DNA of 64,000 bases. Source: Squalus acanthias. Its lineage: Eukaryota. The stretch lies in contig CM059432.1 in the NCBI GenBank assembly GCA_030390025.1, forward strand, positions 58,468,001-58,532,000. The letters are read 5' to 3'. Made by a program: the position numbers and the translations under genes. The notes under the pieces were generated by a model that was not told where the DNA came from, searched no databases, and saw nothing but the letters and a program-made list of their open reading frames with translations. The first letter of the stretch is position 1; each line of letters begins with the position of its first letter. This document shows, piece by piece, positions 2,067-59,219 of this stretch.

Positions 2067-2208
2067 TCATCTTTACCTTGGGTGTTAGAGGTCATGGAAT
2101 ATGCAAAATGAGTAGTCACGTGAGTAAAGGATTGAGTTTCTGAATAGAGCTTTATAAAGTAATTACCTCCTATGTTCCCTAATCCTTTCTGTCACCTTTT
2201 GAGATTAA

Positions 2209-3053
2209 GGGCTGGATTTTCTCAATGGAGACGTGTTGGAGGCGGGACTGCTGCTTGCCAGTTCTCAGTCCCGCCTCTATCAGCCTCTAGCCAACCAGTG
2301 GGATTTTCCCCTGATTGACCTTGTTAAGCCCACCCAGCGGGCTCAGCAGGCCAATTAGGGGGAAGTCACTGACAGAGCACGTCAACGTCTGACGTGCCAT
2401 CTGTCAAGATTTTTTGAAAGAAGAAATGTCAACATTTGACAGCTCTGTGAAGCTGTCAAACACTGACATTCTGTGTAATTTGATGAGTCCTTGCTTTCAG
2501 GACTCATCAAACCTTTCAACTTTGCAGAAATCTCCTGGCTGTTGGTTCGGAAGCTCCAACAGCCAGTCTGTGAAATCTACAATGAAGATGTCGGGACTCC
2601 AGATCCACAGCGGCTGAAGGCTGTAGGCAGAAACAAAGGTAAGTGAACATTTTATAACACTTAACACTCACCTTACATACTTACCACTCCACTCTTGCAC
2701 CCATCACTCACCTGTACATCTCACTTTCAGGCCCTTTCCACCCCCACAGACCTCCTCCACGTCTCCTACACCCCGGCGGGGTTCTCCGAGGTCGGGAAGC
2801 CTGCATTTGAAAAGGTAAAATGGGACTAATCCTTTTTTCTGCCTGTTAACTACCTGTAAACAGGTAGTTAATAGGATTTAATCCCTTTCCTGCCTCGAGG
2901 AGACGGGACCCAGGGCAGGAGGGCTTCCCGCCTCCTGGCAAAAGGGCGCGGAGGCGGGATGGGGGCGGGTTTGCCAGCCGCCCTCACATTCTGCAACTTT
3001 ACCGGCAATCCCGCCTCCATACCCGCCTCCTTGGGGCTGACAAAATCCAGCCC
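2209..3053. mobile_element. Non-autonomous PIF/Harbinger element (845 bp)
   Basis: Perfect 12-bp TIR GGGCTGGATTTT/AAAATCCAGCCC; TAA TSD at 2206-2208 and 3054-3056. Confidence 0.88.
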
Positions 3054-3506
3054 TAAGCCTCTGTCTTTGAGAGCTCTACCACCAGCTGATGGCGGTTCCA
3101 GCGCCGCACGCCATATCCGTCTTGCTGGTAGCGATGCCGCTAAACTTGATCGCCGGGGACATCGCAATCACAGAGATCATGATGTCAGTGTGCAGCACTC
3201 AACTTGATGCCCAATCTCCCAACTTCATTTTGGCCATTGAACTTACCGGCTGGAGAAAGCAACGACAGGTTGAGGTGGCGGCAGCAGCAGGAAGCAGGCT
3301 CCAGCGATGCTAGTTAAAGGGATCCTCACCAACCACTCGCACCTGACAGGGTTTTGCAGTTTGAGTGGCTGTCCGCCACTTCCAGCTACTGGAAGAGTTT
3401 TCTTTAGTTATTTCAAGATTATTTGGTACCAGGGAGTGTTCTGGCAAGTAAAAAAACTCCCTCATTATTTTTGAGATGCTTCAAACTACAACACTTGCTA
3501 ATAATC

Positions 3507-4707
3507 ATGGGGGCTGTACTAGCAGTGGACCTCGCCCTCCAGGATCTACGGCGGAGGGAACAGAGGCAGCGAGAAAGACTGGAACATGTGCACAGAGGGA
3601 GGAGGAGGACCATCAGGGCTCTCAACAGGAGGCCTTACCCTCCGAGGGTCTTCCGACATCACTTCTCCTATCTTCAATTAAGCGAGGAGCAGTGTATTAG
3701 GAGGCTTCGCTTCACCAAGGTGGTGGTCACAGAACTCTGCCACCTCCTGCAACCAGACCTCCAGCCTCACACCAGGGCAACACGGCTCTCTCAGTGGCAG
3801 TCAAGGTCACCGTGGCCCTCAATTTCATCACCAGCGGATCCTACCAGTCTGCAACAGGAGACGTAGCTAACATCTCCCAGTTCACCATCCATCGCTGCAT
3901 CCAAGAGGTCACAGAGGCTCTCTACAGTAGGAGAAGGGACTACATTGGCTTCCCGATCATCAGAGAGAAGCAGGACGAGCGTGCATGTGACTTTGCCAGG
4001 ATAGCGGGCTTCCCCGTGGTGCAGGGTGCCATCGACTGCACCCATGTGGCTTTGCGGGCACCGCATAACAATCCTGAGATCTTCTGTAACCGCAAAGGCT
4101 ACCATTCACTTAATGTGCAGTTGGTATGTGACCACACACAGCGAATCCTCAATGTCAATGCCCGCTATCCTGGCAGCAGCCATGATGTCTTCATCCTGTG
4201 CCAGACCGGTGTGCTACCACTCTTCCAGTCACCGCGTCAAGCTCGAGGGTGGCTGCTTGGAGACAAGGGTTATCCGCTCTCCGCCTGGCTCGTGACTCCC
4301 CTACGCAACCCCAACACTCATATAAAGAGAGCCATGATGCCACCAGGAAAATCATCGAGCAGACCATTGGCCTACTGAAGCAACAGTTCCGCTGCCTTAA
4401 TCACTCAGGAGGAGCCCTCCAGTACTCGGCTGAGCATGTGTCCCATTTTGTGGTGGTCTGTTGCATGCTCCACAACTTGGCCATCAAGAGGGTGCAACCC
4501 TTGCCACTAGGGATTGCAGGACAACCTCAGGAGGAGGACGAGGGAGAGGAGGATGAGGAGGAGGAGTACAAGGAGGAAGAGGAGGAGGAGGAAGAGGACG
4601 AGGAACAGGAGGGAGGAGGCAGCCAGACAATTGGCCTTCCAGACGGGCTGTTCGTGACCGGCTCATCAGATTCCGATTCGCATGAATTAAACCCCAGATT
4701 CCCGTAG
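3507..4707 (+). pseudogene. Harbinger (HARBI1-like DDE) transposase, frameshifted
   Basis: Split over ORFs 3423-3866, 3794-4378 and 4198-4707; [40 protein letters not shown] motifs; acidic tail. Confidence 0.92.
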
Positions 4708-4712: not shown

Positions 4713-5531
4713 CACAGCCCCATCATACCATCCCTGTCTCACACCATATCACAGCCCCATCATACCATCCCTGTCTTACACCGTATCACAGTCCCATCAT
4801 ACCATCCCTGTCTCACACTGTATCACAGCCCCATCATACCATTCCTGTCTCACACTGTATCACAGCCCCATCATACCATCCCTGTCTCACACCGTATCAC
4901 AGCCCCATCATACCATCCCTGTCTTACACCGTATCACAGTCCCATCATACCATCCCTGTCTTACACCGTATCACAGTCCCATCATACCATCCCTGTCTCA
5001 CACCGTATCACAGCCCCATCATACCATCCCTGTCTCACACCGTATCACAGCCCCAGCATACCATCCCTGTCTCACACCGTATCACAGCCCCATCATACCA
5101 TCCCTGTCTCACACCGTATCACAGCCCCATCATACCATCCCTGTCTCACACCGTATCACAGCCCTATCATACCATCCCTGTCTCACACTGTATCACAGCC
5201 CCATCATACCATCCCTGTCTCACACCGTATCACAGCCCCATCATACCATCCCTGTCTCACACCGTATCACAGCCCCATCATACCATCCCTGTCTCACACC
5301 ATATCACAGCCCCATCATACCATCCCTGTCTCACATCATATCACAGCCCCATCATACCATTCCTGTCTCACACCGTATCACAGCCCCATCATACCATCCC
5401 TGTCTCACATCATATCACAGCCCCATCATACCATCCCTGTCTCACACCGTATCACAGCCCCATCATACCATCTCTCTCTCACTCCGTATCACAGTCCCAT
5501 CATACCATCCCTGTCTCACACCGTATCACAG
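4713..5531 (+). repeat. 37-bp minisatellite, 22 units (CACAGCCCCATCATACCATCCCTGTCTCACACCGTAT)
   Basis: Direct tandem units with period 37 from 4713 to 5527; no spacers. Confidence 0.97.
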
Positions 5532-5638
5532 CGTCCTCCTGGGCGCAAAGCTGAAATGAGAGAGACCACAAAATATTCCAAACATAATTAATAAATTTAT
5601 CTATGAACATATCACACATATTACATGAATACTATTAA

Positions 5639-14032: not shown

Positions 14033-14794
14033 GGCCCAAAAATTCGGCCGAATACGGGAGAGTACCCGCGGCGTACTCACCCGTATTCGGTCCCAAAGTG
14101 CCGGTTTCCTGCATGCACTGCGCATGCGCGGGAAACCGGCACTTCCGGTATGGCGAAGGGGGCGGTTCCTAGGTGAACCGCGTGCACACTAGAGGCTGTG
14201 CGCACGCAGCACACTTAGGTTTTTTTTCAGGTTTGAACACGAAGGTAAGTATGGAAGATTTTACACATGAAAAAAGGAGGCGTAAGACCCCCTTTTAACA
14301 AGGTAAGTAGTTAATTAAGTATTATTTTAAATTTTTTTCAACAGGTTTATCTTTTTTAGAGACTTTAAAGAAAGGTAAGTTTATTTTTATAACTTTTAAA
14401 AAGAATTTAAAAAATTTCAAATTTAAATTTTTGTTTAAAGTGGTTAATTTATTTAACTATAGTTATTTTATAAATGTGATGGTTTTTTTTTAAATTTATT
14501 TGAGGTTTAGCTGTTCTTTTGGGGACAATTTGTATTCATAAATTTGACAGTTCTCCTGTCAAATCTATGAATGAAAGATGGTGTGCTGCCATTGGCTCTC
14601 CATGGCCCACGTGATGCCAGAGGTCGCATCGCACTAACTGCGCCCCTGGGACACGCACACACTGTGTGCCGGCACTATGGAGAGGCCCAGGACCCGAAGT
14701 TCGTGTGGGCCCGAAACACAACGGCAGACGCGGTAGGTAAGATCGCGCGCGATCCTTACCCCCGCGGCAAGCCTCCGAGTCAAATTTCTGGGCC
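14033..14794 (+). mobile_element. Harbinger-type MITE, AT-core family, copy 1
   Basis: TIR GGCCCAAAAATT/AATTTCTGGGCC; AAT TSD; homologous to 30226-30967 and 57453-58219. Confidence 0.9.
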
Positions 14795-16783: not shown

Positions 16784-17314
16784 TTAGGGGGCGGTTTTCC
16801 CAGCCCTGAGGAGGCGGGTTTGGAGTCGGGACAGTTCGTAAAATAGCAAAATGTGAGTGCGGGTTCGGAACCCGCCTCCAACCCTCCTCCGCGCAACGTT
16901 GCCGGAGGCAGGCTTCAGGAGTGCGATTCGGTCCCGCCTCCAAGAGGCGGGATAGGCAGTTAAGATCCTTAACAAGCCCCTAAGGGCCTCTGTAATCCTA
17001 TTTTGCCAGGCCTTTGTTATTTTTGCCACATTTTCAGCGTGTTGCACGCCGCTCCTAAATCACGCCAGCTAATCCTGGCGGGTTGACAAGTGGTTGGCCT
17101 CCTCACAGCTGCAGCTCGACCATAAAAACGAAGCTTTCAACAGGGATCAGTTGGAGGTGGCAGAACTTTTTCCCCACAGATCTTTGAGCACTTTTTCCAG
17201 GCCTACTGAAGTCGGAGGTGGTGCAGCTGAGATATATATACTTTGGGACCTCCTGGGAGAACCCTCTCCCTACTTAGACTGAGCGCTTCCCCAACGGAGG
17301 TATCTGCCAGCAGC

Positions 17315-18541
17315 ATGGGAAACATTTATTTCCTTTCATCATGGACCTCCGATTCGGACGAGGAGCAGCCACGGCAGCAGCAGAACCAGGCAGAACAGCA
17401 GCAACAGCAGCAGGAGCGCCAACCTGCTGCTCACCCACCTGATGCTGCACAGGGCAGAAGGCACCAGTGCATGGCAGCACGTCGCCGCAGGAGATACCCT
17501 CCTCTCAGGGTTTACAGACAGAGGATGGGCTTCCTCAACATGAGTGAGCAGCAGTGCCAAAGGAGGCTGAGACTTTCGCGAGAGGTTGTCGGAGACATCT
17601 GCGCAATGCTGCACCAAAACCTGGAGCTCAGAGGATCCGGTGGACACCCCTTACCAGTGGCTGTCAAAGTCACCACCGCAGTCAACTTTTTTGCTTCAGG
17701 CTCCTTCCAGGGATCATCAGCAGACATCAGCGGCATCTCCCAGTCGGCCGCCCACAGTTGCATCACGCAGTTTACCGATGCCCTCTTCAGAAAGGCGCAC
17801 AATTACATCAACTTTTCAACTGATGAAGCAAGTATAACCGTGCGTGCGGTTGGATTTGCAAATATGGCAGGCTTGCCAATGGTGCAGGGCGTCGTAGACT
17901 GCACACATGTGGCCCTTAGGGCACCTCATCACAACCCAGCTATTTTTGTCAACCGCAAGGGCTTCCACTCCCTCAATGTACAGCTGGTGTGTAACCACAA
18001 GAAGGAGATTTCGCATGTTTGCGCCAAGTACTGTGGCAGTTGCCATGACTCGTTCATCCTGCGGCAGTCTAGTGTGCCTCCGCTCTTCAATCCGCCAAAC
18101 CAACTAAACGGATGGCTCCTTGGAGACAAGGGCTACCCACTGAAGAAGTGGCTAATGACGCCGATAAGGAGGCCATCGAACGAAGCTGAGGAGCGCTACA
18201 ATGCCAGCCACATTTTGACCAGGTCCATCATCGAACAAACCATCGGCTTGCTGAAGATGCGATTCAGATGCCTTGACGGATCAGGTGGAGCCCTGCAGTA
18301 CTCAACAGCCAGGGTCTCCAGAATGGTCGTGGTCTGCTGTGCGCTGCACAACATCGCACAGCATCGTGGCTTGCAGCTTCCTGAGGAGCAAGTGGCTCAG
18401 TACATAGCCTCCTCAGATGAAGAGGAGGAGGAGGAGAATGATGACCGAGCGGAGGCGCATCAACTAGCAGCAGCAGCAGCACGCGAGCACATTGCTGGCC
18501 GGAATGCAAGGGATGCACTCATCTTGGCCAGATTTGCTTAG
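17315..18541 (+). CDS. Intact Harbinger (HARBI1-like) DDE transposase, 408 aa from the first ATG
   Basis: Single open frame with [56 protein letters not shown]-terminal poly-Q/Arg stretch and C-terminal acidic tract. Confidence 0.93.
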
Positions 18542-18796
18542 GCTGTCCATTCTAGCACATGTGCTTGGCTCCTTCTTAGCACAAGATAGACAGTGGACAT
18601 GACTCTCTGGCTTCCTCTCACTCTGACCACCAACCTGACCAAGCCAGTCTCGCTGAGGCCGCAATGTGGAGCTTCCAAAATCGAAATCACAGAGGCCATA
18701 ACGTCAACAGTTTGCCATCACCAGAGTTTAATACATTCACAAAGGGATGGCATTTAATCATTAAACACAAAAAAACCCAAGTGACTGCCCGTGTGA

Positions 18797-20727
18797 CTAC
18801 TTGTGCTTTATCTTCCTCTTATGCGTGCTCCTACGTGGTGCTTCCCCTGTGGCTTCAGCAGAAGTGGAGGCCCCTTGCTTACTTTCATGCTGCTCCTGCT
18901 TCAACACTTTTGGCGGGCGTCCTCTGGGTTTGCGAGCCTGTGAGGGCTCGCCAAAAGTCTGCTCCTCCTGCGGCTGTGCAGGGGCTGAGACGCCCATCTC
19001 CGTTGGGTGAGGACTCTGGTGGGACTCTGACCGAGGGCAATGCAGTGGCATGGAAGTGTGAGCGCTTGGAGAGGAGCCCCCACTTCCTTGTTCTCTGCCA
19101 CCAACATACCTCTCATGGGTCAGCCCCACCCAAATGGCTTGTGAGCACCTTGCTGCACATCAGGGGGGCCATGAGGACCCGTCTCTGCACTGGCAGTCCT
19201 ACTGCTGAGGACTTCCATGAAGCTCTGGTCTCTCTGATCAATAGCTGGCCATCGCTCCTCCAGAGATGTCAGTCTATTCTGAACATTGACCATGTTTTCA
19301 ACACTCTGGCGACTTATCTCCTCCATGGCCCTGGCCATCGTCTGCAGAGAGGCAGCCATCGATACCACAGAGGTAGCCAACCTTTCCGAGGAGATGCGCT
19401 CATGCGCCAATGACTCCACAAAGGCTCTGCTCATATTCAAGTTGGACTCTTCCATCCTCTCCACACACGCAGTGACCCTGTATACAAAACCTGCCAGAGA
19501 CCCCTGCACCTGTTCCTGGAGTTCCAGCACCGCTCTCCTTCTGGATGGACCCGGAGGGACAGGGTCCACGTGCAGCTGAGCCGAGCTAGGAGAGTCCTGC
19601 GACCTCCGACGAGGACTCTCCACTGCTGTCCCTGTCTCCACCACCTGCTGATGCTCACCTGTGAGCTGTGATACACCAGGTGACAACACTACTCTATGTC
19701 CCGAAGGTCCCACCGAGGTGTGCGTATCTGCGCTGGTGCTGGGTGCGCTTACATCTGCTGACGCTGCGCCCTCAGAGGTTGCAGGTTCCTCTGAGGAGTC
19801 TTCCGCCTCAGGCTCTTCCTCCTGGACAGTGGGGAGGGGGGCTGTCGATGGTCTTGTGGGGGAGTAAAGGAATGAGTTAGACATGTTACGGTAGTGTGGC
19901 ATGCACATGCAATAGCGCAGATGATCAATTGCCATTCTATAAATATACATCAGCAGCCATTTAAGTGACTCCTGCAATGTAAAAGAGAGAGATGCAAAAC
20001 TATTCTGTCACCAGCTTGCTCTGCTGTGCCCGTCTGACTGTCCCCCACTTCCACCTCCACCTCAGCGCCAACGATTTCCTGGGCCGCCTCTTCAGCATTG
20101 GTCAAATGGGCGAGGGAAGGTGGCCCTCCTCCAGTCTTCACCCTTTCCCTTTTATTGTGGGCTCTCTTTGCCTGCAATGAGGGAGACAAGTGGAGTTTGA
20201 GTGAGAATGATGGAGTGAGTGTAGAGAGTCCAGAGCATAGATGCTTAGAAGGAGACAAAGATGGAGTGAGGTTCTATTTCCAAGGGCCCTCCCTGTGTGT
20301 TGTTAGTCGTTGTCATTGCATAACATTGATAGGGAGTGTGAGGGCAGCATAGTCGAATAGTGAAGTGATTGTGTTCATAGAGTGAGAGGGATGGTTAAGG
20401 GTGCAAGGTTTGTAAGGGTAAAGTGGGATGAGTAGGAGGAGGTTGACAATGCAGAGTGCTGGTGATGAGAGGAGAAAGGGAGCAGAATGAGGGTCAAGCT
20501 GATGGTATACTCACTTTAGCTGATCTTACATTGAACCTCTTGCTGCACACAGATCTGGAGGTGTCATCCCGTGCCAGCTGCACCCGCACAGCCTTGGTTT
20601 GTGTGGGAGGCTTCTTCCTCCCAGATGAGGGGAAGAGCACCTCCTTGCTAGCTCTCACCCCCTCAACCAGAATACTCAGAGACTCACCTGAGAACCTCGG
20701 GGAGGCCTTGGCTCTCGAGTTGGCCAT
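18797..20727 (-). pseudogene. Harbinger Myb/SANT-like gene, 3 exons (20727-20515, 20171-20012, ~19853-18797), apparently defective
   Basis: SPRFSGESLSILVEGV...CSKRFN; 160-nt exon 2; exon 3 acceptor reads CCCACAA|GA versus CCCACAG|GC in element D. Confidence 0.8.
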
Positions 20728-21012
20728 CTCTTCTCAACGCAAAAGTTTCCAAGTTGTGCAGCATCCACAAAACAGCAGTGAAATGATCCAAGGCAGCAAG
20801 CAGCCCTTAAATGAAGCTGCATAAGTGATGTCAGCAGAGGCGCGTTTCAGTCCAAAAAGAGTCATTGGCCCAGGGGAACCCACATGCCCGGAGTTAATCG
20901 GGCAATTAGGGGAAAATCCCAACTTTTTCCCACCTGACAGTGAGAGGCAGGTTCGGCACCCGCCCACCCCCAAACCCGCTCCCAACCCGCCTCCAATGGG
21001 AAAATCATCCCC

Positions 21013-23808: not shown

Positions 23809-24780
23809 TTAAAGGGTCAATAGCAGCAGGAGGAAGCAGGCAATGTAAGCAGCCAGATTGAAGAAAATAATGGCAAATTTTAGTGAGCTGTACCTGCATG
23901 TATTCATAATGGAGATACAGAGCAGGTTGAATTGTCTGTTTGGGGTCATGGGCCAGAGACCTGCTGAAAATCCATTACGCAATTTTTGGAGAGCGATTTT
24001 GGTGGCAGTGAATACCTCCTCATTGAACTCTAAGGGGGATGAATTGGGTTGGCTTGAGCCTCTCGTTAGCGTCCCCGGGGGGCACTAATGGGGCGCAAAT
24101 CCCCTAGGACCTGGGCGCAGCACCGCTAACGCCTCCTGCAAAATTCAGCGGGAGGTTAGTGGCGGTGGTAGCCGGTAGCGGCCCGCGGCGCTACTCCGCC
24201 ACCGATGACGTCATTGCCGAGCAACACAACCCCTTAGCACCCCGCCACGGCCCCTTACTGCCCCGCGGCAGAAATTCGGCTGCACCCCGCGAAGCTGCCG
24301 TGGGCGATGTCAGCGACAGCCTCGTGGGTCACGAACTGGGCTGACCTCCGCTCGCGAGGCTGTAATTAAAGGGGAAGCCCGGCTGCATCCCGCACCGCCA
24401 TTTTATTGTTTTGGCCGACCTCCAGGTCAGCCCCTCATGGCCTGCAGAATGCGCAGCGTCCCTCCCCTTTAACGGAAGGGGAGGGGCGATGAAATGCGTC
24501 AGCGCTACGCGGAGCAGTTGCATAGTGCTCCAGCACTACCAAGCTTTGTGCCCCAGACACCACCCAGAGAGGAAGTGGAGAGCCCGAGATAGCACTCCGC
24601 TTCCTTGCTGGGGCGGTAAGCCCAATTTAACGGCCAGGGCAGTCCTCCCCTGCTGGGCGCTAAATGGCTGGCGCTAATTCGGTTACCGCCCCCAAACGGG
24701 GCGTAACTGAATTTCTCCCCCTAGGACTCTTTTGCCATGCAGGAAGAAGATTGATGGTCTCAGCACAGCAGACAAGGTAA
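23809..24780 (+). pseudogene. Decayed Harbinger Myb/SANT exon 1 interrupted by a MITE
   Basis: Removing 24034-24721 restores ANFSELYL...FWRAILVAVNTSSLNSRTLLPCRKK...K|GTAAGC. Confidence 0.7.
24034..24721 (+). mobile_element. Harbinger-type MITE, GC-rich family
   Basis: TIR GGGGGATGAATT/AATTTCTCCCCC; TAA/TAG TSD; subterminal CGTTAGCG...CTAATGGGGCG shared with 45596 and 51053. Confidence 0.88.
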
Positions 24781-25660: not shown

Positions 25661-25822
25661 GGGGGTAATTTTCACTTTCAGCCGTGGGAAAAATACTGGT
25701 CAGTGTGGATCGGCTGCCCGTTACACACTCTGTCTGGAAAGGAACATTGTGCAGGGTATCTTATGGGCGACCGATCCGCAATCGTCAGTTTGCTGCCCGC
25801 ACCGGAAGTGAAAATTACCCCC
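25661..25822. mobile_element. 162-bp MITE with Harbinger-like ends
   Basis: Perfect 17-bp TIR GGGGGTAATTTTCACTT/AAGTGAAAATTACCCCC; no clean TSD (GTT/GAC). Confidence 0.75.
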
Positions 25823-38635: not shown

Positions 38636-39389
38636 GCTAGCGGACTTCTTTTACATTCCTGATCACACTGAGCTCAGCAAAAAAGGAGTGTGGGGAGTCT
38701 GGGCATGGATGCTTAGACACGAGCACAAAGATTCGCTTCCAGGTAGATAATTTTTAATATTATGGGTGGGTGGGGGAGAGCACCTTATGACATTAAAAGG
38801 TACATTACTAAGTTTGTAAAATGTCCAGAAGATCCAATGCATTGCCTCGACACTTTTAAAATGTAGCTTTGCATCAGACTGAAGTTATACTGCACTCAGC
38901 AAAAAGCCAATTCAGTGTGAGCCTAGATTCTGACAACCAAATAGAACCTTATTATTACAGCTAAGGATTCCATTCAGGCATTTCACACTAATTGCATTTT
39001 TAAGTTAATTTTTTTTTAGATTTTAGAAAGAAAGAATGAAGAAAGAACTTGTATTTATATAGCATCTTTCATCACCTCAGTTTGTCCCAAAGCACTTCAT
39101 AGCTATTGAAGTACTTTAGAAATGTAGGCCAGAATTTTTACCTGCCGACGTGCAGGTAGCGAGGGAGCCCTGGATCGCGTGGGGAACCCGGAGGTTTCAA
39201 CGGCGTGTTTGGCTTTTTAACAAAGCCACTGCATTTGCATCTGACTTCTGGGTTTCCCAACCAATTAATGATAGCGGGCTTGATGACATCCCGTATGGGT
39301 CCAATTCAGCTCAGGTATTTAAAGAAGCAATGCAAAGATGACAGTTGAAGGTTTGTGGAGGTTGGAGAGACCTTGCTGGGAAAGACAAA

Positions 39390-41086
39390 AAAATACAGTC
39401 CCAATGTACAAAAGCTGCCCCTCACTTCAGTGATGCCTCCTTGAAACTCCTGCTTCAACGAGTCAGGGCCCACAGGGAGGTCCTATTCCCTGCTGATAGG
39501 AGGAAGAGGCCAGCTGCAGACACCAAGCTGGAGATAGCGGTGGAGGTGAGCAGCAGGAGTGTGATGGCGAGATCCTGGGATTCAATGCAGGAAGAGATTT
39601 AATGACCTCATGAGGTCAGGAAAGGTGAGTACAATGCCACATTCAACTACATTCTGATGTTCGTGTCACCCCAACCCCCCCTCACTCTGCTTTCCCAAGC
39701 CTACTCCTGCACATCACTCCTTACACCAACCTACCTTGCAGGTGCCCCATCCCTCTCTGTCTATGCACTTCCTCACATCCCCACCTGACCATCCACCACT
39801 GACACTCACCCTCATCTTAATGTAATGTCACGCCTCTCCCTCAGTCACGCTCTACAGATGTTGCCCATGCATCCGTTCAACTCATTCCATGACTTTCACT
39901 CAAAGGTCTCTTGCTTCCTTCCTTGCAGGAGAAGAGAGCACAGAACACCAGGGAGAGGCAGGGAACCAGAGGTGGCCCTCCAGTCATCTCCACGCTGATT
40001 GCTGCAGAGGAGAAGGCACTGGAGCTAACTGGAATATCGGCGTTGATGGCGGTGGGAGATGGAGAGATGGGAAGCTCCCAGCTACCTGGTGATAGAATTA
40101 AATATCACACAGCCACATGGCATACAACACTCACTCATGTTGACTTGATGTCAGCAGCCAGTGAAATATGATCATGTGCATAATGTTCATTTAAAATATT
40201 CTTACCATGACAGTTCCAATTCATGTTTCTCCCACAGGCCCATCAAGTGTCCAACAGCCAGTGGAGCCAGAGGAGGAAGAAGACTCCTCAGAGGAGGTCA
40301 CTAATTCTGAGCGTGCACCGTCACAGGACGCATGTACAACAAGCACCAGCGCAGATACACACACACCGGTGGGACCATTAAGTCAGATGGTGTCACCTGG
40401 TGTCTCACGGATCACATATGAGCAAGAGCGGATGGTGTAGACAAGGACAGCAATGGGGAGTCCTCGTCTGAGGGCGCAGGACGCTCCAAGCTCTGCTCAG
40501 CTGGACGCAGATGCTGAACCTCTGGGGTCGTCGACAAAGAGGATGACTGGCATGATGTCGCAGGCTATGGCTATGATGTTCATCCAAAGGATGGCCACCT
40601 GCATGGAGCATCAAACGTGGCAGTCAAACAAGTGCATGCTTGCCCTCACCAACAGCTTGCACACTCTGAATGCCACTTTAACAAGGATGGATAAAAACCT
40701 AGACTTGGCTGTTCATCGCCCCACTGATGGGCAACAAAGTGCTCTCCAGCTCATTGCTAGCAGGGAAGTGCGGGTGGGGCATGAGAGGGGTAATGGTGAG
40801 CGGGGACATAGAAGTGGGGACTCTGCTCAAAGCGCTTCCACTTCTCACCCATTGCCGCCCCCCCACGTCAGAGCCCCACATGCTGCCTCCTGTCCCGATG
40901 GCCGAGTCTACCCCTGCACAGGGGCAGGAGGAGCAGTCTTCACGGGCTCCAAAACCCAGAGGACATCGGCCAAGTGCATCTTAGCAGTCAGAGCAGGAAA
41001 GTGAGCATCCTGCCTCTACCTTTGCTGAAGCCACGAGGGTTGCACATTGTAGAAGTAGTAGGAAGAGGAAGATGAAAGAATTCTAG
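39390..41086 (+). pseudogene. Harbinger Myb/SANT-like gene, 3 exons (~39390-39624, 39929-40088, 40238-~41086), disrupted
   Basis: APHFSDASLKLLL...EVLFP; AAG|GTGAGT donor; 160-nt exon 2 EKRAQNTRERQGTRGGPP. Confidence 0.82.
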
Positions 41087-41375
41087 TTACACAAGGGTAT
41101 GCACATGGGTATGTTAGGCAATGTTGTACTGTGAAGGTTATGTTGAAATTTGGAGGAACGTAAAATTATTTCATTGTACCACTTTCCCGTCTTGCTGAAT
41201 TTTGTCTGTTGCCTGGCGCGTGGCCTTGTCACTTGTAATGAATAGTAAGACACGACTTAACTGCGAGCAATGGATGTCTATGAAAGGAATGGTTTGGTCA
41301 TTGTAGGACTGCTTTGTGGTTGGGAGGGGAAAGTGGGTCCAGCATCTGAGTGCCAGATCGGTGCACTGGTGCAAC

Positions 41376-42561
41376 CTAACTAAATCGGGCCATTATGGGG
41401 CCATCCTGGACATCCCTGGCAGCAATGTGCGCTGCTGCTGGTGCTATGTTCACATCAACTTCCTCCTCCTCCTCCTCTGAAGAGGCTGTGTGCTCTGCAC
41501 CTTGCTCCTCCTGCAGCTCCAATCCTCGTTGCTGCACTATGTTGTGCAGCGCACAGCATACCACGATCATTCTGGCTGGTGTGTATTGAAGGGATCCTCC
41601 AGATCTGTCCAGGCATCTGAAGCCCATCTTCAGCATCCCGATTGCTTGCTCCATTACACATCTCATTGTCATTTGGCTTTGATTGTAGCACTCTTTGGCC
41701 TCATTGCTTGGCCTTCTCAAGGATATCATCAGCCACATCTTCAGTGGATAGCCCTTGTCTCCAAGTATCCAGCCAGTAAGTCTGGTCGGAGGTGCGAAGA
41801 GCTGAGGGAGAGTGGACTGGCGCAGGATGAATGCATCATGACAGCTGCCTGGGAATCTGGCGCACACATGCACGATGATCTTTTTGTGGTTACAGACGAG
41901 CTGCACATTGATGCAGTGGAAGTCCTTGCAGTTCACAAACACTCCTGGGTGATCTGGGGGTGCCTTGATTGCCACATGTGTGCAGTCGATGATGCCCTGC
42001 ACCTGTGGGAAGCCAGCCAGAGCCGCAAACCTGAGCGCCTCCTCACTCTGACTGGCTTCATCGGTGACAAATGTGTACATAACTGCCTGCCCTGGTGGAC
42101 ATGGCATCAGTCACCTGGGTGATGCATTTGTGGGCGGCCAACTGCGAGATCCTGCAAATATCTCCTGCAGATCCCTGGAAGGATCCTGAGGTGAAGAAGT
42201 TGAGGGCAGTGGACACTTTGACAGCCACTGATAAAGCGTGGCCACCAGGTCCACTTGGCAGCAGGTCTTGTCCCAGCAGGCTGCAAATGTCTGCCACGAC
42301 CTGACGTGGTACTCTGAGCCTCCTGAGGCTCTGCTGTTCAGACATGTCCTGGAAGCTGATCCTCTGCCTGTGTACCCGGTGTTGGGGGTATCGCCTCCTG
42401 CGAGGTGCACCCCTGTGCTCATCCCCTCTCTCCTGTGGAGCAGCAGGTCGGTGAGGAGAACACTGCTGCTGCTTCTGCTGGTGTTGCTGGTGTTGTTGCT
42501 GCTGGTGCTCATTCTGGCCCCCATCTGAGGTCCAAGGTGAAACAGCATAAGCGGCACCCAT
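41376..42561 (-). pseudogene. Harbinger transposase, one evident frameshift near 42105
   Basis: GIIDCTH, GSCHD, ILGDKGY, MEQAIG, CCALHN; poly-Q N-terminus and poly-E C-terminus. Confidence 0.92.
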
Positions 42562-43354
42562 GCTGATCTGATATATGACAGAGTGGAGTTCAGACACACA
42601 GTCCTCCAATGTAGTGAGAGTGACCTCCAAAGTTGTAGAATTCACTAGCAAAGTACTGATAGCAAACTCTGAGAACAAGTGCTGTGAGCAAAAGCCTTTC
42701 CCTTAGGCAAGGAAGCAGCTGTGAGGTCTCAGTACTTATCGGATTTTTTGCCTGTCATTTGTTCTACCCCCTCAATTGCCATTGTGCTCTCGCCTTGCTT
42801 TCACTGATGAGGTCTAGGAAGCCTACGAATCCCGTGCACATACAGTAAAATTTGAAACCCCATGTAAAAAGCCGCTTAACGAGCCGCTTAATTAGCTGCT
42901 TAACTAGCTCTAAATTGCTTTAACTTTCTAACCAGCCTCTCCTCAGGGGGTTTCTCGCTCACAGCCGAACGCGCTCGAGTTAAATGCGGAAGCCGGCGGG
43001 TTGAAGCCAGCTTCCCGACGCGCAGTCAATTTCAAAGCATTTAACCACCCACCCACTCCCAAACACACTCACTCTTTCCTGTTAAAATCCCGGCAGTAGT
43101 CACTGTTGTAATGTAGGGATTTTGAAAACCATGTGCACTTTGTTCGCATGGGCCGCCACATGATTCTTCTCTCTTCAAGAAGCAGATCGAATATGTACAT
43201 ATTCTGGATAAGACTCAGGCTCTGAACCAACAAATGGTTTTAGTTAAATAAAACATGACTGAACAATATGCTGCATAAAACAGTGATTCATACACTTCTT
43301 TATTCTCCTCAATCCATAAACTAACAGATGGCACTTATACTCTTTCTAAACATA

Positions 43355-45493
43355 GGGCTACAAATTCGTGGCCTTAGCGCAACTCCGTAGCACCAATAAA
43401 TGGCACTAAAACGGCGGCCGCCACTTTTTCACCAGCTGCTGGCGGTTCCTGCGGCGGCCGCCGTTTTCGTCCTTACTTTTGCACTGCCGGTAACTGGCAG
43501 CACCGTGCTGGACAAAATGGCGACGTTGTAACGTAAATCAGCGTGCAACGCCGACTTTATGTCACAAGCGTGAACTTCGATCCTAGCTGGGTCCTAAGCA
43601 CGCCAGGTGAACAGTGACAGTGACTGACAGTGGCGATGTCTGGACCTGTTAAAGGGACATACACATCATTCAGGTAAGTTTGAATTTAAGGGTTTGGACT
43701 GGGTTTTTTTGATTTTATTGAAGTGGTTGCTTGCTGCAATAGATGTGAAAAGTTTTTTAAGTGTGTAGGGAGTATTGCTGGATGTTTGCAATGACTCGGA
43801 TAGTAAATGAAGGCCTTTGAGAAGACAGAACATCAGGCAACATCCGTGGAGAGAAAAACAGAATTCACGTCTCAGGTCGAGATGCTGCCTGACCAGCTGA
43901 GTATTTCCAGCATTTTATGCTGTCTTATCACATTTACAGCATCTGCTTGCAGAGGGAAGAGGAAGACACAGAAGAGGAGGAATCAGAAGAGGAGGAATCA
44001 GACGGAAGGATGCAACCCAGACAGCCCCTTTGTGGCCGGGATATCCGGGATGGAATCATCCGCCTGCGGTCCCAGTGACCACAACCCCAATTCCCCTTTC
44101 AACATTAGTCCCACACCTTACCTTCCATCTGTTACTGATCATCACAGTGACCTCTTGGCCACAATGCTGAAATAAAAGGCACCACAAAGCAAACTTTCCA
44201 ATCCACCTATATACGTCTATCCATCCAATGTGACATCAAGGAATCAACTCATCACCCGTATGCATTCTCTTAGTGACTGTCTTGTGTGTGCCTTTGCCTA
44301 TCTTACTGATGTCACGCAGTGCTACCCCAGTGGCTGCACCATGGCTGGGGAAAGGCTGCTGACTTTCAATGGGGGACACTGCAAATGTCCCTGCTGATTG
44401 AACTTGAGGAGCTGGTGGCTGGGAGTGTGAAATCAATCGTCTTCTGTTCTTGTTCTTCTTCACTCTCCTCTCCCTCTTCTTGTCACCTACTGGCTGGGCA
44501 GGCTGCATTTCTTGGGTGTGTGAAATGAGGAAGGCACAAGTGTGGAGTTGTGCTGACGGGAGGGTGGGAAAGCAAGAGGCGCATGCAAGAAGGAGGATAA
44601 TGTACGAGGATACCAGCATCTTGTATCCTTTCAGCCCTGCCGCTGGCCAAGGACTCAGCCATGATCCTGCCAAGAATGGCCAACATTGTCTCCTCCGAGG
44701 GGATGAGGTGAGGCTAGGAATCGGAGATGTGCCTCGTCATTGGTGCTGATAGTTGGTAGGTGAGTGATTGGGGGTCGTGCATTGAGCAGTGTGTGAGGCT
44801 AGTGGTGCAGTTGGTCGGAGATGGCTTTTGAAGATACATTCACTGACCTTGACCAATGGTCTGAGGTCATGAAGCTTCTTTGGGCACTGGAGCCAGGTCA
44901 TGGGGGCAACACTGCTGGCAGTGACAGCCTCAGTGATGTGGTCCCACATCCTTCTTTCTGGAGGGCCTCCTGCCCCTTGTAGGTAGAGAGCCTGTGTTGC
45001 AGTGTTGACTCCTGCACAGAGCTAGAGTGCTGCATGCGAGACCCTGGGTGCCCCTTCCCTGGCTTGCTGAGCCATTTGTGTTAGTGCTGATGCAGTTTTC
45101 CCATTTGCTGAGGTTAGGAAGGTAATTCAGCTTTAAGAGCTGAATATTCACATTTGGAACTTCTTTTAAATGTTGAAAAAAAAATTTATAAGGCAGAAAG
45201 GGCTGAAAAATGTATTGATTCACTTCATTTTATTTAGTATTGCTTCAGTGTGCATGGCCCCTTTAATTCTCAGACCTATTCATTGCCCACAATTCCTTGC
45301 GAGCTCCACAGTTTCGCTCACAGAGGCTGTAGGAAGCTGCAATGCCGGACCTGGACAGGAACTTCATCCCGGATCACTCCAGCAATGCCACCAGGACGGC
45401 GTTGCACGGAAGGTGAGCGCTGGGCCACCTATCTCCATGTCCCCCAGGCCAATTTCACCGGCAACTTTGCTGATGAACACGAATTTTTACTCC
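43355..45493. mobile_element. Internally deleted Harbinger derivative (Myb remnant on minus strand ~45074-44236; transposase reduced to its acidic 3' end)
   Basis: TIR GGGCTACAAATTCGTG/CACGAATTTTTACTCC (13/16); ATA/ACA TSD; WDHITEAV...TWLQCPKKLHDL Myb motif. Confidence 0.8.
43830..43947. mobile_element. Inverted pair of Penelope-like terminal fragments
   Basis: TCAGGCAACATC...GAGAGAAAAACAGA...TCAGGTCGA (reverse) abuts GATGCTGCCTGACC...CCAGCATTTT (forward). Confidence 0.55.
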
Positions 45494-45595: not shown

Positions 45596-46484
45596 GGGGG
45601 AAAAATTCGGTTGCTTTGCGCCTCCCGTTAGCGCCCTAAGAGGGCGCTAATGGGGCGCAAAGCAACTAGCGCCTGTGTACGGCGATGTTTGCGCCACTCG
45701 CAAAATTGACCAGACATTTTGCAGCGGTGCTAAACACTACTGCCACGATCTCCTGCGCCCGCAGATCGTGACGTCAGTCAAGTGTGCAACGCCCCGGTAG
45801 CGCCCCAGACCAGATATTGAGTGGCACCCCCTGCCTTTCCGCCTGCCGCTAGCAATGACAGGTTGAGGGGAACGTTTTGCAGTCGGGAAGGGACTGGGGA
45901 GCGCTATTTAAAGGTGACCGCTTCCTGCCTTTTTTGTTGCCGACATTTTTGCACCACGCATTCTGAGAGAGAGAGAGAGACTGCAGAAGATATTCAACGC
46001 TGTGTGAAGGAGTTTTGGGTACTGAGCAGCACTTTGCAGGTTCATTTTAATTTGACCTTCCTTGCATCAATTTAGAAGAGACTGTGGGAGCTGCACTCTG
46101 AGCTCTTTCCCTGGGCCTCTTCATTATTCTTTCCAGCAGATTTGATGTACAGGTCTCTCCAGGCCGAGATTCAAGCTGCAATGAGCAGGGTGTGGATGGA
46201 GGGCAAGATCGACCCTTCCCTTTAAGAACTGGCCGGGGCCATTGTGTCTGTGTTCCATTGCTGACTGACATTACATGAGCTTCGCCCGCGCTCTGAGGTA
46301 GTGCCTCGCTCCTCGGCGTTAGCGCCTTAAGAGAGGTGTGTAGCGCCTGATTTAGCGCTCCAATCACCTCCAGGGGCGATAGAAGCCAAGTTTACAGTCG
46401 GAGGAAATAATTAGTGCCAGGCGCTAAACTTTGCGCCCGGCCAATAATTGCGCCCCAAACGGGGCGATACCGAATTTCTCCCCC
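45596..46484 (+). mobile_element. Harbinger-type MITE, GC-rich family
   Basis: TIR GGGGGAAAAATTCGGT/ACCGAATTTCTCCCCC; AGA TSD. Confidence 0.92.
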
Positions 46485-46632: not shown

Positions 46633-47640
46633 GGGGCGAATTTTAACCCAAAAGAACGGGCGCGTTGGAGTCGGGTGGGAGGTTCAAGTGTTAAAAAACT
46701 GAATCTCGACCCCAACCCACCTCCAACTCGCCCACTTTCGGTTTTAACGGAGGCGGGGCGGGCAGCTCACCCACTCCCAGGAGGCGGGTCGTCCATTATA
46801 ATGAGGCTGGCGTGCCTCATGGTGATCCCCATTTCAAATTTAACGGAGCTGGTCGGGTTTCCCGGGCCACGTCGACCCACCAGCTAAAGTAAGGCCTTTA
46901 TACTTAGCTCCTGGATCCAGCGTCCCTGCTTCACCACCCCCCGCGATCAGACACCTCCCCCGAGGCCTCCGATCCCCCCGCGATCAGACACCTCCCCCCG
47001 AGGCCTCCGATCCCCCCGCGATCAGACACCTCCCCCGAGGCCTCCGATCCCCCCGCGATCAGACACCTCCCCCCGAGGCCTCCGATCCCCCCGCGATCAG
47101 ACACCTCCCCCCGAGGCCTCCGATCCCCCCCCACAAGGCCTCTGGTCACTTTCCTGGCCTCCCTCCTCCAGCCCCAATGCTCAAGCCCCGATCCTTCTCC
47201 CGCAACCTGCAAATGCTCCTCTGGCCCTGATCCTCCCCCGCCCACCGATGCTCCTCTGACCCTGATCCTCCCCCCCGCCACTATGCTTCTCCGGCCCTGA
47301 TACTCCGACCCCAATTCACCACCCCCCCCCCCCCGCCCCCGCACCAGCCCAATGTTCCTCTGGCCCCGATCCTCTGGCCCCGATCCTCCTCCGGCCCCTG
47401 ACCACCCCGTACTCGATCCTGCCCTCCCTCCTCTCTGCAGCCCAGTGCCACAGGCCAACCCGCCTGCAGCCAGCCAGCCTCTCCATCTGACTGGCTGCGG
47501 ACAGGAAACAGAGCTTTGAAACACTAATAAGGCCCTGCCGTTAAATTCAGCAAGGCATGGAGGAAACCCGTTCTCCTGGGTTTCCCGACTGCTTTCTAGT
47601 GCCCCCGCTCCCAGCCCGCCTCCAGATTAAAATTCCGGCC
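46633..47640. mobile_element. Non-autonomous Harbinger element containing a minisatellite
   Basis: TIR GGGGCGAATTTTAA/TTAAAATTCCGGCC; GAT TSD. Confidence 0.87.
46937..47131 (+). repeat. 37/38-bp C-rich minisatellite, 5 units
   Basis: GCGATCAGACACCTCCCCCGAGGCCTCCGATCCCCCC at 46943, 46980, 47018, 47055, 47093. Confidence 0.93.
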
Positions 47641-51052: not shown

Positions 51053-51825
51053 GGGGGAAAAATTCAGCTGCTTGCGCCTCCCGTTAGCGCCTTAAATGGG
51101 CGCTAATGGGGCGTAAAGCAGCTAACGCCCGGGCGCAGCGCCGCCCACGCCTCCCGAAAAATTTAGTGGGAGGTTAGCGGCGGCGGCAGCCGGTAGCGCC
51201 CTGTGGCGCTGCGCCGCCGGCGATGACGTCATCGCCGTGCGCAGCGCCCCGCTCGCGCCCCGGCCGTGATCTTCAGTCGCGCCCCCTGATTTACCGCCAG
51301 ACGCTATGTCCGACGGGTTCAGGGGGGCGTACGTGCGGCCGGGGCGGCGATATTTAAAGGGGAGGTGGCAGGCGGCCATTTTTGTTGCTGGCCGCCTGCC
51401 AGCACCTGCCCCCGTTGCTGTCCCCGGCCCCCGTGAAGCCCCCCCACCGTGAAGTGCCGGCTGCGCTCCAAGAGCCCGGCACTTCTCTTGAGTGCCGGGC
51501 TCTTTTGCCGGCACTCCCGATCCCTGGGAGCCCAGCTGGGCCCCGGTTCGCGCTGCGCAAGGCCCCTCCCCTTTAAGAAGGGGAGGAAGGCCTGCAATAC
51601 CGCGGCGCGACGTGCCGCAGCGCGTGGCGCTGCGGCACGTAGCGCCAGGATATTCACTCGCAGCGCCCCAAGAGGGATGCGGGGTGCTTCCAGTTGCGCC
51701 CCGCTTCCCTCTTGGGGCGCAACCACTGAAGTTCCGGCGCGGGGCCGCTAATTTTTTCGGGGCGCTAAAAGTCGCGCCCCGGCGAGGTTAGCGCCCCAAA
51801 TGGGGCGCGACTCAATTTTTACCCC
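51053..51825 (+). mobile_element. Harbinger-type MITE, GC-rich family, CpG-rich
   Basis: TIR GGGGGAAAAATT/AATTTTTACCCC; CTT TSD. Confidence 0.9.
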
Positions 51826-56220: not shown

Positions 56221-57452
56221 ATATATCCTTCCTAAGGTGTGGTGCCCAGAACCACTCACAGTACTCCAGGTGTGGTCTAACCAGGGTTTTGTACAGCTGA
56301 AGCATAACTTCTACCCCCTTGTATTCTATTCCTCTAGATATAAAGGCCAGCATTCCATTAGCCTTTTTGATTATTTTCTGCACCTGTCATGACATTTTTA
56401 CAATCTATGTACCTGGACCACTTTAGCCTTTCACCATTTAGAAAGTATCCTGTTCTATCCTTTTTAGGTTCAAAGTAGATGACCTCACATTTGCTTACAT
56501 TGAAATGCATTTGCCACAGTTTTGTCCATTCATTTAATCTGTCGATATCCCTTTGTAATTTTATGCTTCCATCTACACTGCCTACAATGCCACCTATCTT
56601 TGTGTCATCGGCAAATTTGGATATATGGCTTTCTATGCCATCATCTAAGTCGTTAATAGATACTGTGAATAGTTGAGGCCCCAACACAGATCCCTGCGGG
56701 ACACCACTAGTCACTTTCTGGCAATTTGAGTACCTACCCATTATCCCTACTCTCTGTCTCCTGCCGCTAAGCCAATTTCCTAACCAGGTCAATAATTTGC
56801 TCTCAATTCCATGGGCTTCTACCTTAGTTAACAGTCTCTTATGAGGGACTTTATCAAATGCTTTCTGGAAGTCCATGTAAATAACATCCATAGACATTCC
56901 CCTGTCCACTACTTTAGTCACCTGCTCAAAAAATTCAATCAGGTTTGTCAGGCATGACCTACCTTTCACAAATCCATGCTGGCTCTCTGATCAACTGAAA
57001 ATTTTCGAGGAGTTCTGTCACCTTATCCTTAATTATCGACTCTAGTAATTTCCCAACAACAGATGTTAGACTAACTGGTCTACAATTCCCTGGCTTCCCT
57101 CTCTCACCATTTTTAAATAGCGGAGTGACATGCGCAATTTTCCAATCTAAAGGAAAGGTTCCTGAATCGAGAGAACTTTGGAAAATTATAGTTAAGGCAT
57201 CTGCAATGTGCTCACCTACTTCCTCTAAAACCCTGGGATGGAAACCATTGGCCCTGGGGATTTGTCACTCTTTAGTGCCATTATTTTCTTCATTACTGTT
57301 ATTTTACTTACGTTAATTTTATTGAGTCCCTGTCCCTGATTCAATATTAGTTTCCTTGGGATTTCTGGCACGTTATCCTCTTCCTTTACTGTAAATACTG
57401 ATGCAAAGTAATTATTCAACATGTCCGCCATTTCCTTTTTATCATTGATTAT

Positions 57453-58219
57453 GGGGCAGAAATTAGGCTCGCCACGGGTGAGTACGCACTATGTACTCAC
57501 CCGTGGACGGAACGAAAGTGTCGGTTTCTTGCATGCACTGCACATGCGCGGGAAACCGGCACTTCCGTTCCCCTGAAGGAAGGGGTTCAGAGATCGAACG
57601 CGCACGCCGGAGGGCCAGCGCGTTCACCTCGCACTTCGGGTTTTTTTTACAGGTTCCTCCGTGAGGGTAAGCACGGAGAAGATGCACATTGAAAAAGGAG
57701 GCGCAAGGCCTTCTTTTAACAAGGTAAGTGTTGATTTTATTAAAATTTAAACATTTTTTTCACAGATTTATCTTTTTTAATTACTTTAAAGAAAGGTAAG
57801 TTTAGTTTTAGCCCCGTTAAAAAGTGTAATTAATTTTTTCAAAAATTTAAATTTTTGTTTAAAATAGTTAATTAATGTAATTTATAGTTATTTTAAAAAT
57901 GCGATGTTTTTAAAAAAAATTATTTGTAGTTTTAGGGATGTTTTGGGGCTGATCTGTATTCATAGATTTGACAGGTCTTCCTGTCAAATCTATGAATGAA
58001 AGATGGTCTGCTGCCATTGGCTCTCCATGTCCCACGTGATCCCAGGGGACGCATCGCACTAACTACGCCCCTGGGATACGCAAGCACTGCGCGCCGGCAG
58101 TTGGAGGAGGCCCAGGAGCCGAATTCCCCGCGGGCCCAGGGGTCAACGGCAGGCGCGGTAGGTAAGTGCACGCGCGATCCTTGCACCCGTGGGAAGTCAG
58201 GGAGCCGAATTTCTGGCCC
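57453..58219 (+). mobile_element. Harbinger-type MITE, AT-core family, copy 3, inserted in CR1 ORF2
   Basis: TIR GGGGCAGAAATT/AATTTCTGGCCC; TAT/AAT TSD. Confidence 0.9.
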
Positions 58220-59219
58220 AATATCACCGCTTTCAGTTTTCAAGGGGCCAACATTGCTCCTGACCACCCTCTTTTCCTAATATAATTGTAAAAAAAATTG
58301 TGTTGATTTTGATATCCCTTGCAAGTTTCCTTTCATACTCCCTTTTTGTAGCACTTACTATCTGTTCTGTGACCCTTTACTGTTCTTTGTACCTTTCCCA
58401 TTCGCCAGGATCTGTGCTATTTTTTGCATTTTTGTATGCTTTTTCTTTTAGTTTAATGCTGTCCCTTACCTCTTTAGCCATCCATGACTGTTTTTTTGTC
58501 AAGTCGAGCTCTTGCCCCTCAGGGGTATGAACTGGTTCTGTATCACCTTAAATTCTTATTTGAACATCTCCCACTGATCTTCTGTTGTTTTACCTATTAA
58601 CAGATTTGCCCAGTTTACTGTGGACAGTCTCTGCCTCATCCCTTTGAAGTCGGCTTTACCCAAATCGAGAATCTTAGTAGCTGTTTCACGTTTCTCCCTT
58701 TCAAATACTACGTTGAACTCGATCATGATTGCTATTGGATAAATGTTCATGCACAGTTAAGCTGTTAACTAAATCTGGCTCATTACTTGTTACTATATCT
58801 AATATGGCTTGCCCCCTTGTTGCCTCTAGGACATATTGTTGTAGAAAACTATTCCGGACACACTCAAGAAATTCACTACCTTTCTGACAGGTGCTAATCT
58901 GCTTATCCCAATCTATGTGAAAGTTAAAATCCCCCATTAAAACCACTCTGCCTTTACTACATGCTTGTCTAATCTCTGCATTTATACAATCTAGTACTTT
59001 ACAGCTGCTACCAGGAGGCCTAAACACAACTCCCACTACAGTCTTAGATCCTTTCCTATTTCTTAATTCTACCTATAAAGTCTCCACTGCCTGCTTACCT
59101 CTCATTATATCCTCTCTTATCATTGAAGTGAAGTGATTTCATCCTAATCACTAAGGCTACTCCTCCCCCTCTGCCATTTTCCCTATCTTTCCTGTAGACC
59201 TTATAACCTGGTATATTTA

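What the first reader, a model, noticed from the sequence alone, without database searches (positions are those of the whole stretch)
2200..58230. Harbinger target preference appears to lie in the flanks, not in the 3-bp TSD
Seen: clean TSDs vary (TAA, AAT, GTA, AGA, GAT, CTT; imperfect TTA/TTT, TAA/TAG, ATA/ACA). At 12 two-ended insertions, the base 5' of the TSD is a pyrimidine in 10 and the base 3' is a purine in 10 (G in 8). Examples: TAAAC-ATA-GTCTTT, AAACAC-AGA-GCTCTT, CAACAC-TTA-GATA, GAAAT-GTA-GTCAC. Established: plant PIF elements favour TWA, and zebrafish Harbinger3_DR favours AAACAC-CWG-GTCTTT. Inference: a semi-palindromic target with a free centre, shared by several families.
Basis: partly seen in the sequence, partly recalled or inferred. 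Interest (0 to 1): 0.7.

Follow-up and report, generated by a model that had tools for sequence, protein, structure and literature searches.

The report
Harbinger landing motif, donor-marked target duplications
Cut-and-paste jumping genes in this shark-like genome land in a mirror-symmetric motif whose flanks matter more than the three duplicated bases, a variant of a preference known from zebrafish and plants, and in one group about a quarter of the duplications disagree at the middle base, likely because the element brings bases along from its previous site.

Summary
In my 12 two-ended window elements, -1 is a pyrimidine in 10, +1 a purine in 10 and G in 8. Genome-wide, 2283 of 2900 ends of one young family have R at +1 and T at +4, against about 15% by chance. 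The target is about (A)RASWY-nnn-RWSTY(T), close to zebrafish Harbinger3_DR's flanks. The centre is not free: four families take A/T-rich triplets (flanks 6.25 bits, centre 0.95), two take mostly AWT (3.59 versus 2.87). Extended targets are a textbook PIF/Harbinger trait, and this scan found the motif before on other pieces of this genome.

The added result concerns the 'imperfect' TSDs. In the AWT families 22 of 89 AWT/AWT pairs in loci, and 15 of 48 pairs from genome-wide listings, are AAT on one side and ATT on the other. Central A<>T differences number 23 against 1.3 expected, do not rise with age, and one side matches the empty site in 18 of 21 testable cases. Best reading: the element carries a 3-nt donor overhang that is sometimes kept, as shown for mPing and piggyBac (inferred, about 0.7). 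New variant of a known kind.

The parts
2209..3053 (+). E1, 845-bp non-autonomous Harbinger-type element, TSD TAA|TAA, A/T-rich-centre group
14033..14794 (+). E2, 762-bp non-autonomous element, TSD AAT|AAT, AWT group; 1163 exact right ends genome-wide
16787..21012 (+). E3, 4.2-kb autonomous-type element, TSD TTA|TTT
17243..18541 (+). E3 transposase, open 432-codon frame, Pfam DDE_Tnp_4 E=2.4e-36
20500..20727 (-). E3 second gene, first exon. No Pfam hit in this copy, which lacks 9 residues; the same exon of family copy L241 hits Myb_DNA-bind_5 at E=4.3e-10
24034..24721 (+). E4, non-autonomous element related to E10/E12, TSD TAA|TAG
   Evidence: sequence, self-BLAST
25661..25822 (+). E5, 162-bp TIR element with non-matching triplets GTT|GAC; no other copy found at E<=1e-15
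30226..30967 (-). E7, relative of E2 (82%), centre-swapped TSD ATT|AAT
35054..36468 (-). E6, element with E10-like ends at the same site as E3 in a locally duplicated segment; left end damaged, right triplet TTA
39127..43095 (-). E8, decayed autonomous-type element (transposase 55-64% identical to E3's), TSD GTA|GTA
43355..45493 (.). E9, internally deleted element, TSD ATA|ACA
45596..46484 (+). E10, 889-bp non-autonomous element, TSD AGA|AGA
46633..47640 (+). E11, old 1-kb element, TSD GAT|GAT
51053..51825 (+). E12, 773-bp element of a very young family (40 of 40 scored copies 100% identical; 2900 exact right ends), TSD CTT|CTT
57453..58219 (+). E13, 767-bp element, AWT group, TSD TAT|AAT

Best explanation
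These Harbinger-type transposons insert into a roughly 15-bp semi-palindrome whose conserved part is the two flanks and whose duplicated centre is A/T-rich or AWT depending on the family, and their excision likely cuts through the old duplication so that the element carries a 3-base overhang from its previous site, which is sometimes kept at one junction. Shown: the logos, the family difference in the centre, the excess of centre-swapped duplications, and that one side equals the empty site. Inferred: a two-fold symmetric transpososome reads each half-site (strongest at positions 4 and 1 from the triplet). The centre is selected for bending or opening rather than read base by base. A donor triplet that differs from the target triplet makes a mismatch at each junction, which host repair settles either way. 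If donor and target differ in half of AWT insertions and each junction is settled at random, 25% of AWT/AWT pairs would be swapped; 25-31% are. The confidence given is for this donor-overhang step; the flank preference itself is beyond reasonable doubt.
For: Flank motif: 182 distinct sites give flanks 6.25 bits and centre 0.95; 128 sites give 3.59 and 2.87; 310 control sites give 0. Genome-wide 2283 of 2900; 52 new copies give -1 Y 47, +1 R 47, -4 A 47, +4 T 45. Swaps: 22 swapped against 67 matched AWT pairs among 134 elements; A<>T differences 28 at the centre against 6 and 3 at the outer positions (P=1.7e-7); E2 family 23 against 1.26 expected, E13 5 against 0.21; 15 of 48 pairs from coordinates. 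No rise with divergence: E2 tertiles 17/37, 11/35, 9/34; E12 5/57, 7/64, 5/65, the youngest class against 0.39 expected. One side equals the paralogous empty triplet in 18 of 21 mismatched elements (left 8, right 10). Precedent: staggered cleavage of mPing TSDs (PMC4561436); donor TTA/TAA arriving with mPing (PMC11254759); asymmetric piggyBac TSD explained by repair (PMC8717057).
Against: Under a conservative nearest-neighbour expectation the older A/T-rich families show no overall excess of mismatched TSDs (E1 8 vs 6.0, E10 4 vs 7.8, E3 7 vs 4.4), and 52 new E12 copies alone gave 3 vs 2.0 (P=0.33). Six of 17 E12 substitution cases put G or C next to the terminal G/C run, which suggests a second, slippage-like process. 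No donor copy could be matched to a foreign triplet, and no orthologous empty allele was read. In yeast only 1 of 46 insertions of a TCA-flanked mPing showed TCA (PMC4561436), so frequent retention is not general. In 3 of 21 cases neither side matched the paralogue majority. The partner transposase of the AWT families is not identified.
Confidence: 0.7

Rival explanations
1. Same flank preference, but mismatched duplications come from error-prone filling of the 3-base gaps at insertion (the polymerase copies a neighbouring base), with no donor bases involved.
For: In AWT triplets a centre swap always equals a neighbouring base. It would be age-independent and keep one side equal to the empty site. 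Six E12 cases extend the terminal G/C run, and 1-base slips occur (4 of 186 E12 copies).
Against: It needs an error rate near 25% per insertion at one base. Next-base copying predicts only the ATT|AAT class plus G next to the TIR, but both classes occur (12 AAT|ATT and 7 ATT|AAT among 108 E2 copies; 8 and 7), and no left AWG appears among those 108. Some foreign bases match no neighbour (AAA to ATA, TCT to TAT twice, TTG to TAA).
Confidence: 0.13
2. Centre swaps arise later by quasi-palindrome correction or conversion between the element's two ends or between copies: a swapped AWT extends the terminal inverted repeat.
For: AAT|ATT and ATT|AAT are exactly the forms that lengthen the stem. 8 of 108 E2 copies have a homogenised TIR position 7.
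Against: Fixed left/right TIR differences are not homogenised in E12 (0 of 134) or E13 (0 of 28). Only 2 of the 8 E2 copies are swapped, and several of them cluster as a subfamily. Flanks of swapped elements are no more complementary than those of matched ones (+-1 10/22 vs 36/68; +-2 2/22 vs 27/68). No rise with age.
Confidence: 0.08
4. The flank motif is an artefact of a few repeats (CR1 tails) being hit many times, or of A/T-rich context.
For: Several sites in repeats are hit repeatedly.
Against: Collapsing same-site insertions leaves 182 of 199 and 128 of 136 sites with the same logo, and control sites from the same flanks are flat.
Confidence: 0.02

Closest known systems
Harbinger3_DR of zebrafish (15-bp palindromic target as quoted in PMC3016246, passages; the primary paper, Sinzelle et al. 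2008, was not held)
   Same: DDE transposase plus Myb/SANT gene, 3-bp TSD, 15-bp semi-palindromic target. 27% of half-sites of the A/T-rich group match 5 or 6 of its 6 flank bases, against 1% of controls.
   Different: The centre is A/T-rich (62% WWW, 22 of 32 triplet classes) or AWT; CWG is 1% and 0%.
mPing/Ping/Pong and maize PIF (PMC2836001 passages; PMC4561436 parts 1-3 of 5; PMC11254759 passages)
   Same: Preference beyond the TSD; proposed staggered cut through the TSD; donor triplet travels with the element.
   Different: 9-bp target with a TWA centre (TWA is 15% and 0% here). Donor carry-over was shown at Cas9 cuts, and was rare or absent in free insertions in yeast (1 of 46).
piggyBac (PMC7351741 and PMC8717057 passages; Li et al. 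2013 seen only as cited)
   Same: The overhang from the donor TSD gives asymmetric TSDs at non-matching targets.
   Different: Another superfamily; 4-bp TTAA; about 2% non-canonical insertions, against 25-31% swapped AWT pairs here.
PHIS groups Pangu (ANT), NuwaI (CWG), NuwaII (C|TNA|G) (PMC4482050, passages)
   Same: E2/E13 share Pangu's A-N-T duplication; the C...G at +-1 of the A/T-rich group recalls NuwaII.
   Different: The A/T-rich group fits none of the TSD-defined groups; no transposase tree was built.

Membership tests
PHIS / PIF-Harbinger superfamily | DDE transposase of the DDE_Tnp_4 type | tested here: met
   E3 ORF, E=2.4e-36; related pieces in E8 and two other window elements
PHIS / PIF-Harbinger superfamily | Second gene with Myb/SANT domain | tested here: met
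   Family copy L241 E=4.3e-10; the window's own two exons gave no hit
PHIS / PIF-Harbinger superfamily | TIRs starting with G and a true 3-bp duplication | tested here: met
   empty paralogues hold one triplet; 117 of 134 E12 copies have matching triplets
PHIS / PIF-Harbinger superfamily | Target preference beyond the TSD | tested here: met
PIF/Harbinger group in the narrow sense (Han et al. 2015) | TWA duplication | tested here: not met
   15% in the A/T-rich group, 0% in the AWT group
NuwaI (includes the CWG type) | CWG duplication | tested here: not met
   1% and 0%
NuwaII | C|TNA|G target | tested here: not met
   C and G at +-1 are common (66%), but TNA is a minority of centres
Pangu (for E2/E7/E13 only) | ANT duplication | tested here: met
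   AWT 76% of 256 triplets
Pangu (for E2/E7/E13 only) | Transposase in the Pangu clade | not tested
   Autonomous partner not identified (part 3); not filed as Pangu
TSD-cleaving, overhang-carrying excision (mPing, piggyBac type) | Excised ends bear the donor triplet; the donor site closes precisely | not testable with these tools
   Only the genomic signature was measured

The most novel reading that the evidence does not exclude
In these vertebrate Harbingers the 'target-site duplication' is often not a duplication. The excised element carries its old triplet, and in the AWT families host repair settles each junction almost at random, so about a quarter of insertions are mosaic and a further share would have both copies overwritten by the donor. 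The flanks, not the TSD, are the conserved recognition site across Harbinger lineages, and thousands of genomic copies record the strand geometry of excision (13213 AAT-type against 12227 ATT-type ends).
Probability: 0.65. Interest if true: 0.55.

Novelty: new variant of a known kind. Interest (0 to 1): 0.42.

Why it matters
The flank motif alone is a modest extension of a known trait. It does show that TSD-based grouping of PHIS elements (TWA, CWG, ANT, TNA) rests on the least conserved part of the target, and that annotation demanding TWA or perfectly matching TSDs will miss many copies here. If the swapped duplications are donor overhangs, a natural genome supplies family-scale evidence that vertebrate Harbingers excise by cutting through their TSD, so far modelled for plant mPing. 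That predicts footprint-free excision and makes the very young E12 family and the open E3 transposase frame candidates for a direct assay. It also means TSD mismatch cannot be used to date these insertions.

Tried and rejected
Reading an orthologous empty allele from other samples: laying four runs on L094 was swamped by tens of thousands of contigs from other family copies; no joint across the element was among those shown, so nothing follows, and no window element was tested this way. Tracing a donor by lineage: the two marked E12 copies (L214, L165) had no relative sharing their indel among the 39-40 copies returned, and their nearest copies bear unrelated triplets; uninformative with 186 of about 2900 sampled. 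E8 (2 of 30 loci with both ends intact), E11 (6 of 8) and E5 (1 copy) gave too few sites for family logos; E4, E7 and E9 were not searched. A first expectation from difference to the family majority over-counts inherited variants; the nearest-neighbour expectation was used instead and is still conservative. Both-side overwriting is only hinted at: 10 of 42 matched TSDs differ from the paralogue majority, including TTA|TTA twice at a site where 40 of 40 and 65 of 65 paralogue hits read TTG, but host-repeat variation and CpG decay explain some. The end asymmetry is significant (P=7e-10) but could include unequal capture of left and right ends; I do not use it to name an overhang polarity. Searching 13 one-ended or long loci for a partner transposase gave one hit (L374) of unknown linkage.
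Full report
Setting. The window is G000:C8:58468001-58532000 of a 3.7-Gb assembly, packed with LINE-like repeats and TIR elements. 'Shark-like' and 'CR1' are my inference from size and repeat content, not a call result. E3 (16787-21012) holds an open 432-codon frame that hits DDE_Tnp_4 at E=2.4e-36. Its second gene is Myb/SANT-type in a better-kept family copy though not detectably in the window copy. These are PHIS/Harbinger elements.

Observation. Twelve two-ended elements were delimited from the sequence. Six have matching triplets and six do not.

Data set. Copies were fetched per family and kept if both terminal GG were intact and they were not duplicates: E1 24 of 30, E10 26 of 30, E2 29 of 30, E13 28 of 30, E3 15 of 30, E11 6 of 8, E8 2 of 30, E12 134 of 142 ends. 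I added 79 E2 copies of 90 ends taken by position on C1/C2 and 52 of 57 further E12 loci. The DNA searches return the copies closest to the query; the pattern-based sets are the first places on C1/C2 with an exact right end.

The target. After collapsing insertions at the same site of a repeat, E1+E10+E12+E3 give 182 sites with the half-site -6 A 59%, -5 R 83%, -4 A 85%, -3 S 69%, -2 W 87%, -1 C 66%/T 25%. The flanks carry 6.25 bits and the centre 0.95; each of the four families shows the same split. E2+E13 give 128 sites with a weaker version of the same flanks (-4 A 64%, -2 A 66%, -1 T 62%/C 32%; 3.59 bits) and an AWT centre (76%; 2.87 bits). 310 pseudo-sites from the same flanks are flat. 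Genome-wide, of 2900 exact E12 right ends, 2283 have R at +1 and T at +4 (control 15%) and 1886 have an all-A/T triplet (control 19%). So two flank positions alone are enriched about 5-fold and the whole centre about 3.4-fold. The centre is relaxed (22 of 32 triplet classes) but not free. A within-window illustration: E3 and the different element E6 sit at the same position of a locally duplicated segment.

What is known. PMC2836001 (passages) states that PIF/Harbinger elements have an extended preference, 9 bp in plants and 15 bp in vertebrates. PMC3016246 (passages) gives the zebrafish palindrome; 27% of half-sites here match 5-6 of its 6 flank bases against 1% of controls, while its CWG centre is nearly absent. 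PMC4482050 (passages) defines PHIS groups by TSD, with fixed flanking bases in NuwaII and ISL2EU. Sinzelle et al. 2008 was not held. A search for shark + Harbinger + target site + TIR listed five papers; of these I read passages of two, and PMC9179366 reports no Harbinger in elephant shark. No supplements were read; family tables in PMC4482050's supplements may bear on the grouping. This scan's earlier notes describe the same motif on other pieces of this genome.

The imperfect TSDs. Among 134 AWT-group elements, 22 read AAT on one side and ATT on the other, against 67 matched AWT. A<>T differences number 28 at the centre and 6 and 3 at the outer positions (P=1.7e-7). Using each copy's distance to its nearest sampled relative as an upper bound on change since insertion, the E2 family has 23 central A<>T differences against 1.26 expected, and E13 5 against 0.21 (two long copies left out). 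Pairing the first 100 listed places by coordinate gives 15 swapped among 48 pairs (a few matched pairs overlap the loci set). The rate does not rise with divergence (17/37, 11/35, 9/34). In E12, 17 of 186 copies have substitution-type mismatches (7.4 expected) and 4 have 1-base slips; the youngest 57 have 5 against 0.39. Against this, E1, E10 and E3 show no overall excess under the same expectation, and the 52 added E12 copies alone are not significant.

Empty sites. Where a flank lies in a repeat, the two flanks are contiguous in paralogues for 22 of 44 mismatched and 78 of 137 matched elements, so mismatches are not mainly exchanged flanks. In 18 of 21 mismatched elements with at least three empty paralogues one side equals the empty triplet (left 8, right 10), and the other side is foreign. 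One repeat site (empty AAC) was hit three times independently, and each time the right copy has T at the centre (L086, L333, L323).

Mechanism. Gilbert et al. (PMC4561436, parts 1-3 of 5) propose that mPing is excised by a staggered cut through its TSDs. Liu et al. (PMC11254759, passages) see the donor TTA/TAA arrive with mPing and describe 3-nt overhangs. For piggyBac the same geometry gives asymmetric TSDs at non-canonical sites (PMC8717057, PMC7351741, passages). I infer the same here. An AWT overhang meets an AWT gap of the other sense half of the time, pairs at both outer bases, is ligated with a central mismatch and is repaired either way, which predicts 25% swaps. Less similar triplets would more often be trimmed, which fits the lower rate in E12. 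The rivals are fill-in error (it fits six E12 cases that extend the terminal G/C run, but poorly fits two swap classes and non-neighbour bases), palindrome correction (TIR differences are not homogenised, 0 of 134 and 0 of 28; flanks are not more complementary) and later mutation. One published result weighs against generality: 45 of 46 insertions of a TCA-flanked mPing in yeast read TTA/TAA. Searches for mismatched, non-matching or asymmetric TSDs with Harbinger listed no paper whose title or abstract start reports this in a natural animal genome; most subscription journals are not covered. Two earlier notes of this scan raised the centre swap with 3 and 11 copies and reached opposite readings.

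Verdict. Observation confirmed; interpretation partly supported (flank-dominated target yes, free centre no, novelty limited). The part worth following is the donor-marked duplication, supported statistically for the AWT families but not shown directly. New variant of a known kind; interest 0.42.

Noticed in passing
window 51053-51825: Very recent burst: 40 of 40 scored copies are 100% identical over 773 bp, and there are 2900 exact right ends genome-wide. Its autonomous partner may be active or recently active and was not found.
   Followed up: partly
window 17243-18541: Uninterrupted Harbinger transposase frame; 6 of 23 family loci examined keep a stop-free frame over 400 codons.
   Followed up: partly
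window 16273-16782 and 21009-21286 versus 34451-35053 and 36465-36744: Local duplication (85-93% identical) in which two different Harbinger families occupy the same site. The second copy's right triplet TTA suggests that E3's right TTT is the foreign one.
   Followed up: yes
L092, L094, L133, L461, L178, L210: In E12 the TSD base next to the terminal G/C run is G (left) or C (right) in 6 of 17 substitution-type mismatches; possibly slippage at the junction.
   Followed up: partly
L208, L219 versus L165, L436, L467: One repeat site is hit at least five times by E12. Two copies read TTA|TTA although all empty paralogue hits read TTG: possible overwriting of both sides.
   Followed up: partly
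L096, L127, L131, L159, L450, L473, L477; L105, L135, L197: Repeated insertions into the 8-bp tandem tails of LINE-like repeats, which spell the target motif; noted before by e1-9902586.
   Followed up: no
window 4713-5532 and 10199-10639: Tandem arrays (37/74-bp and 37-39-bp units) inside two decayed, oppositely oriented autonomous-type Harbingers of one family.
   Followed up: no
window 25661-25822: 162-bp element with perfect 16-bp TIRs but wholly different triplets (GTT|GAC) and near-palindromic flanks; no second copy at E<=1e-15.
   Followed up: partly
L131/L132 (G000:C1:18.895 Mb): Two E12 copies about 11 bp apart in successive units of one LINE tail.
   Followed up: no
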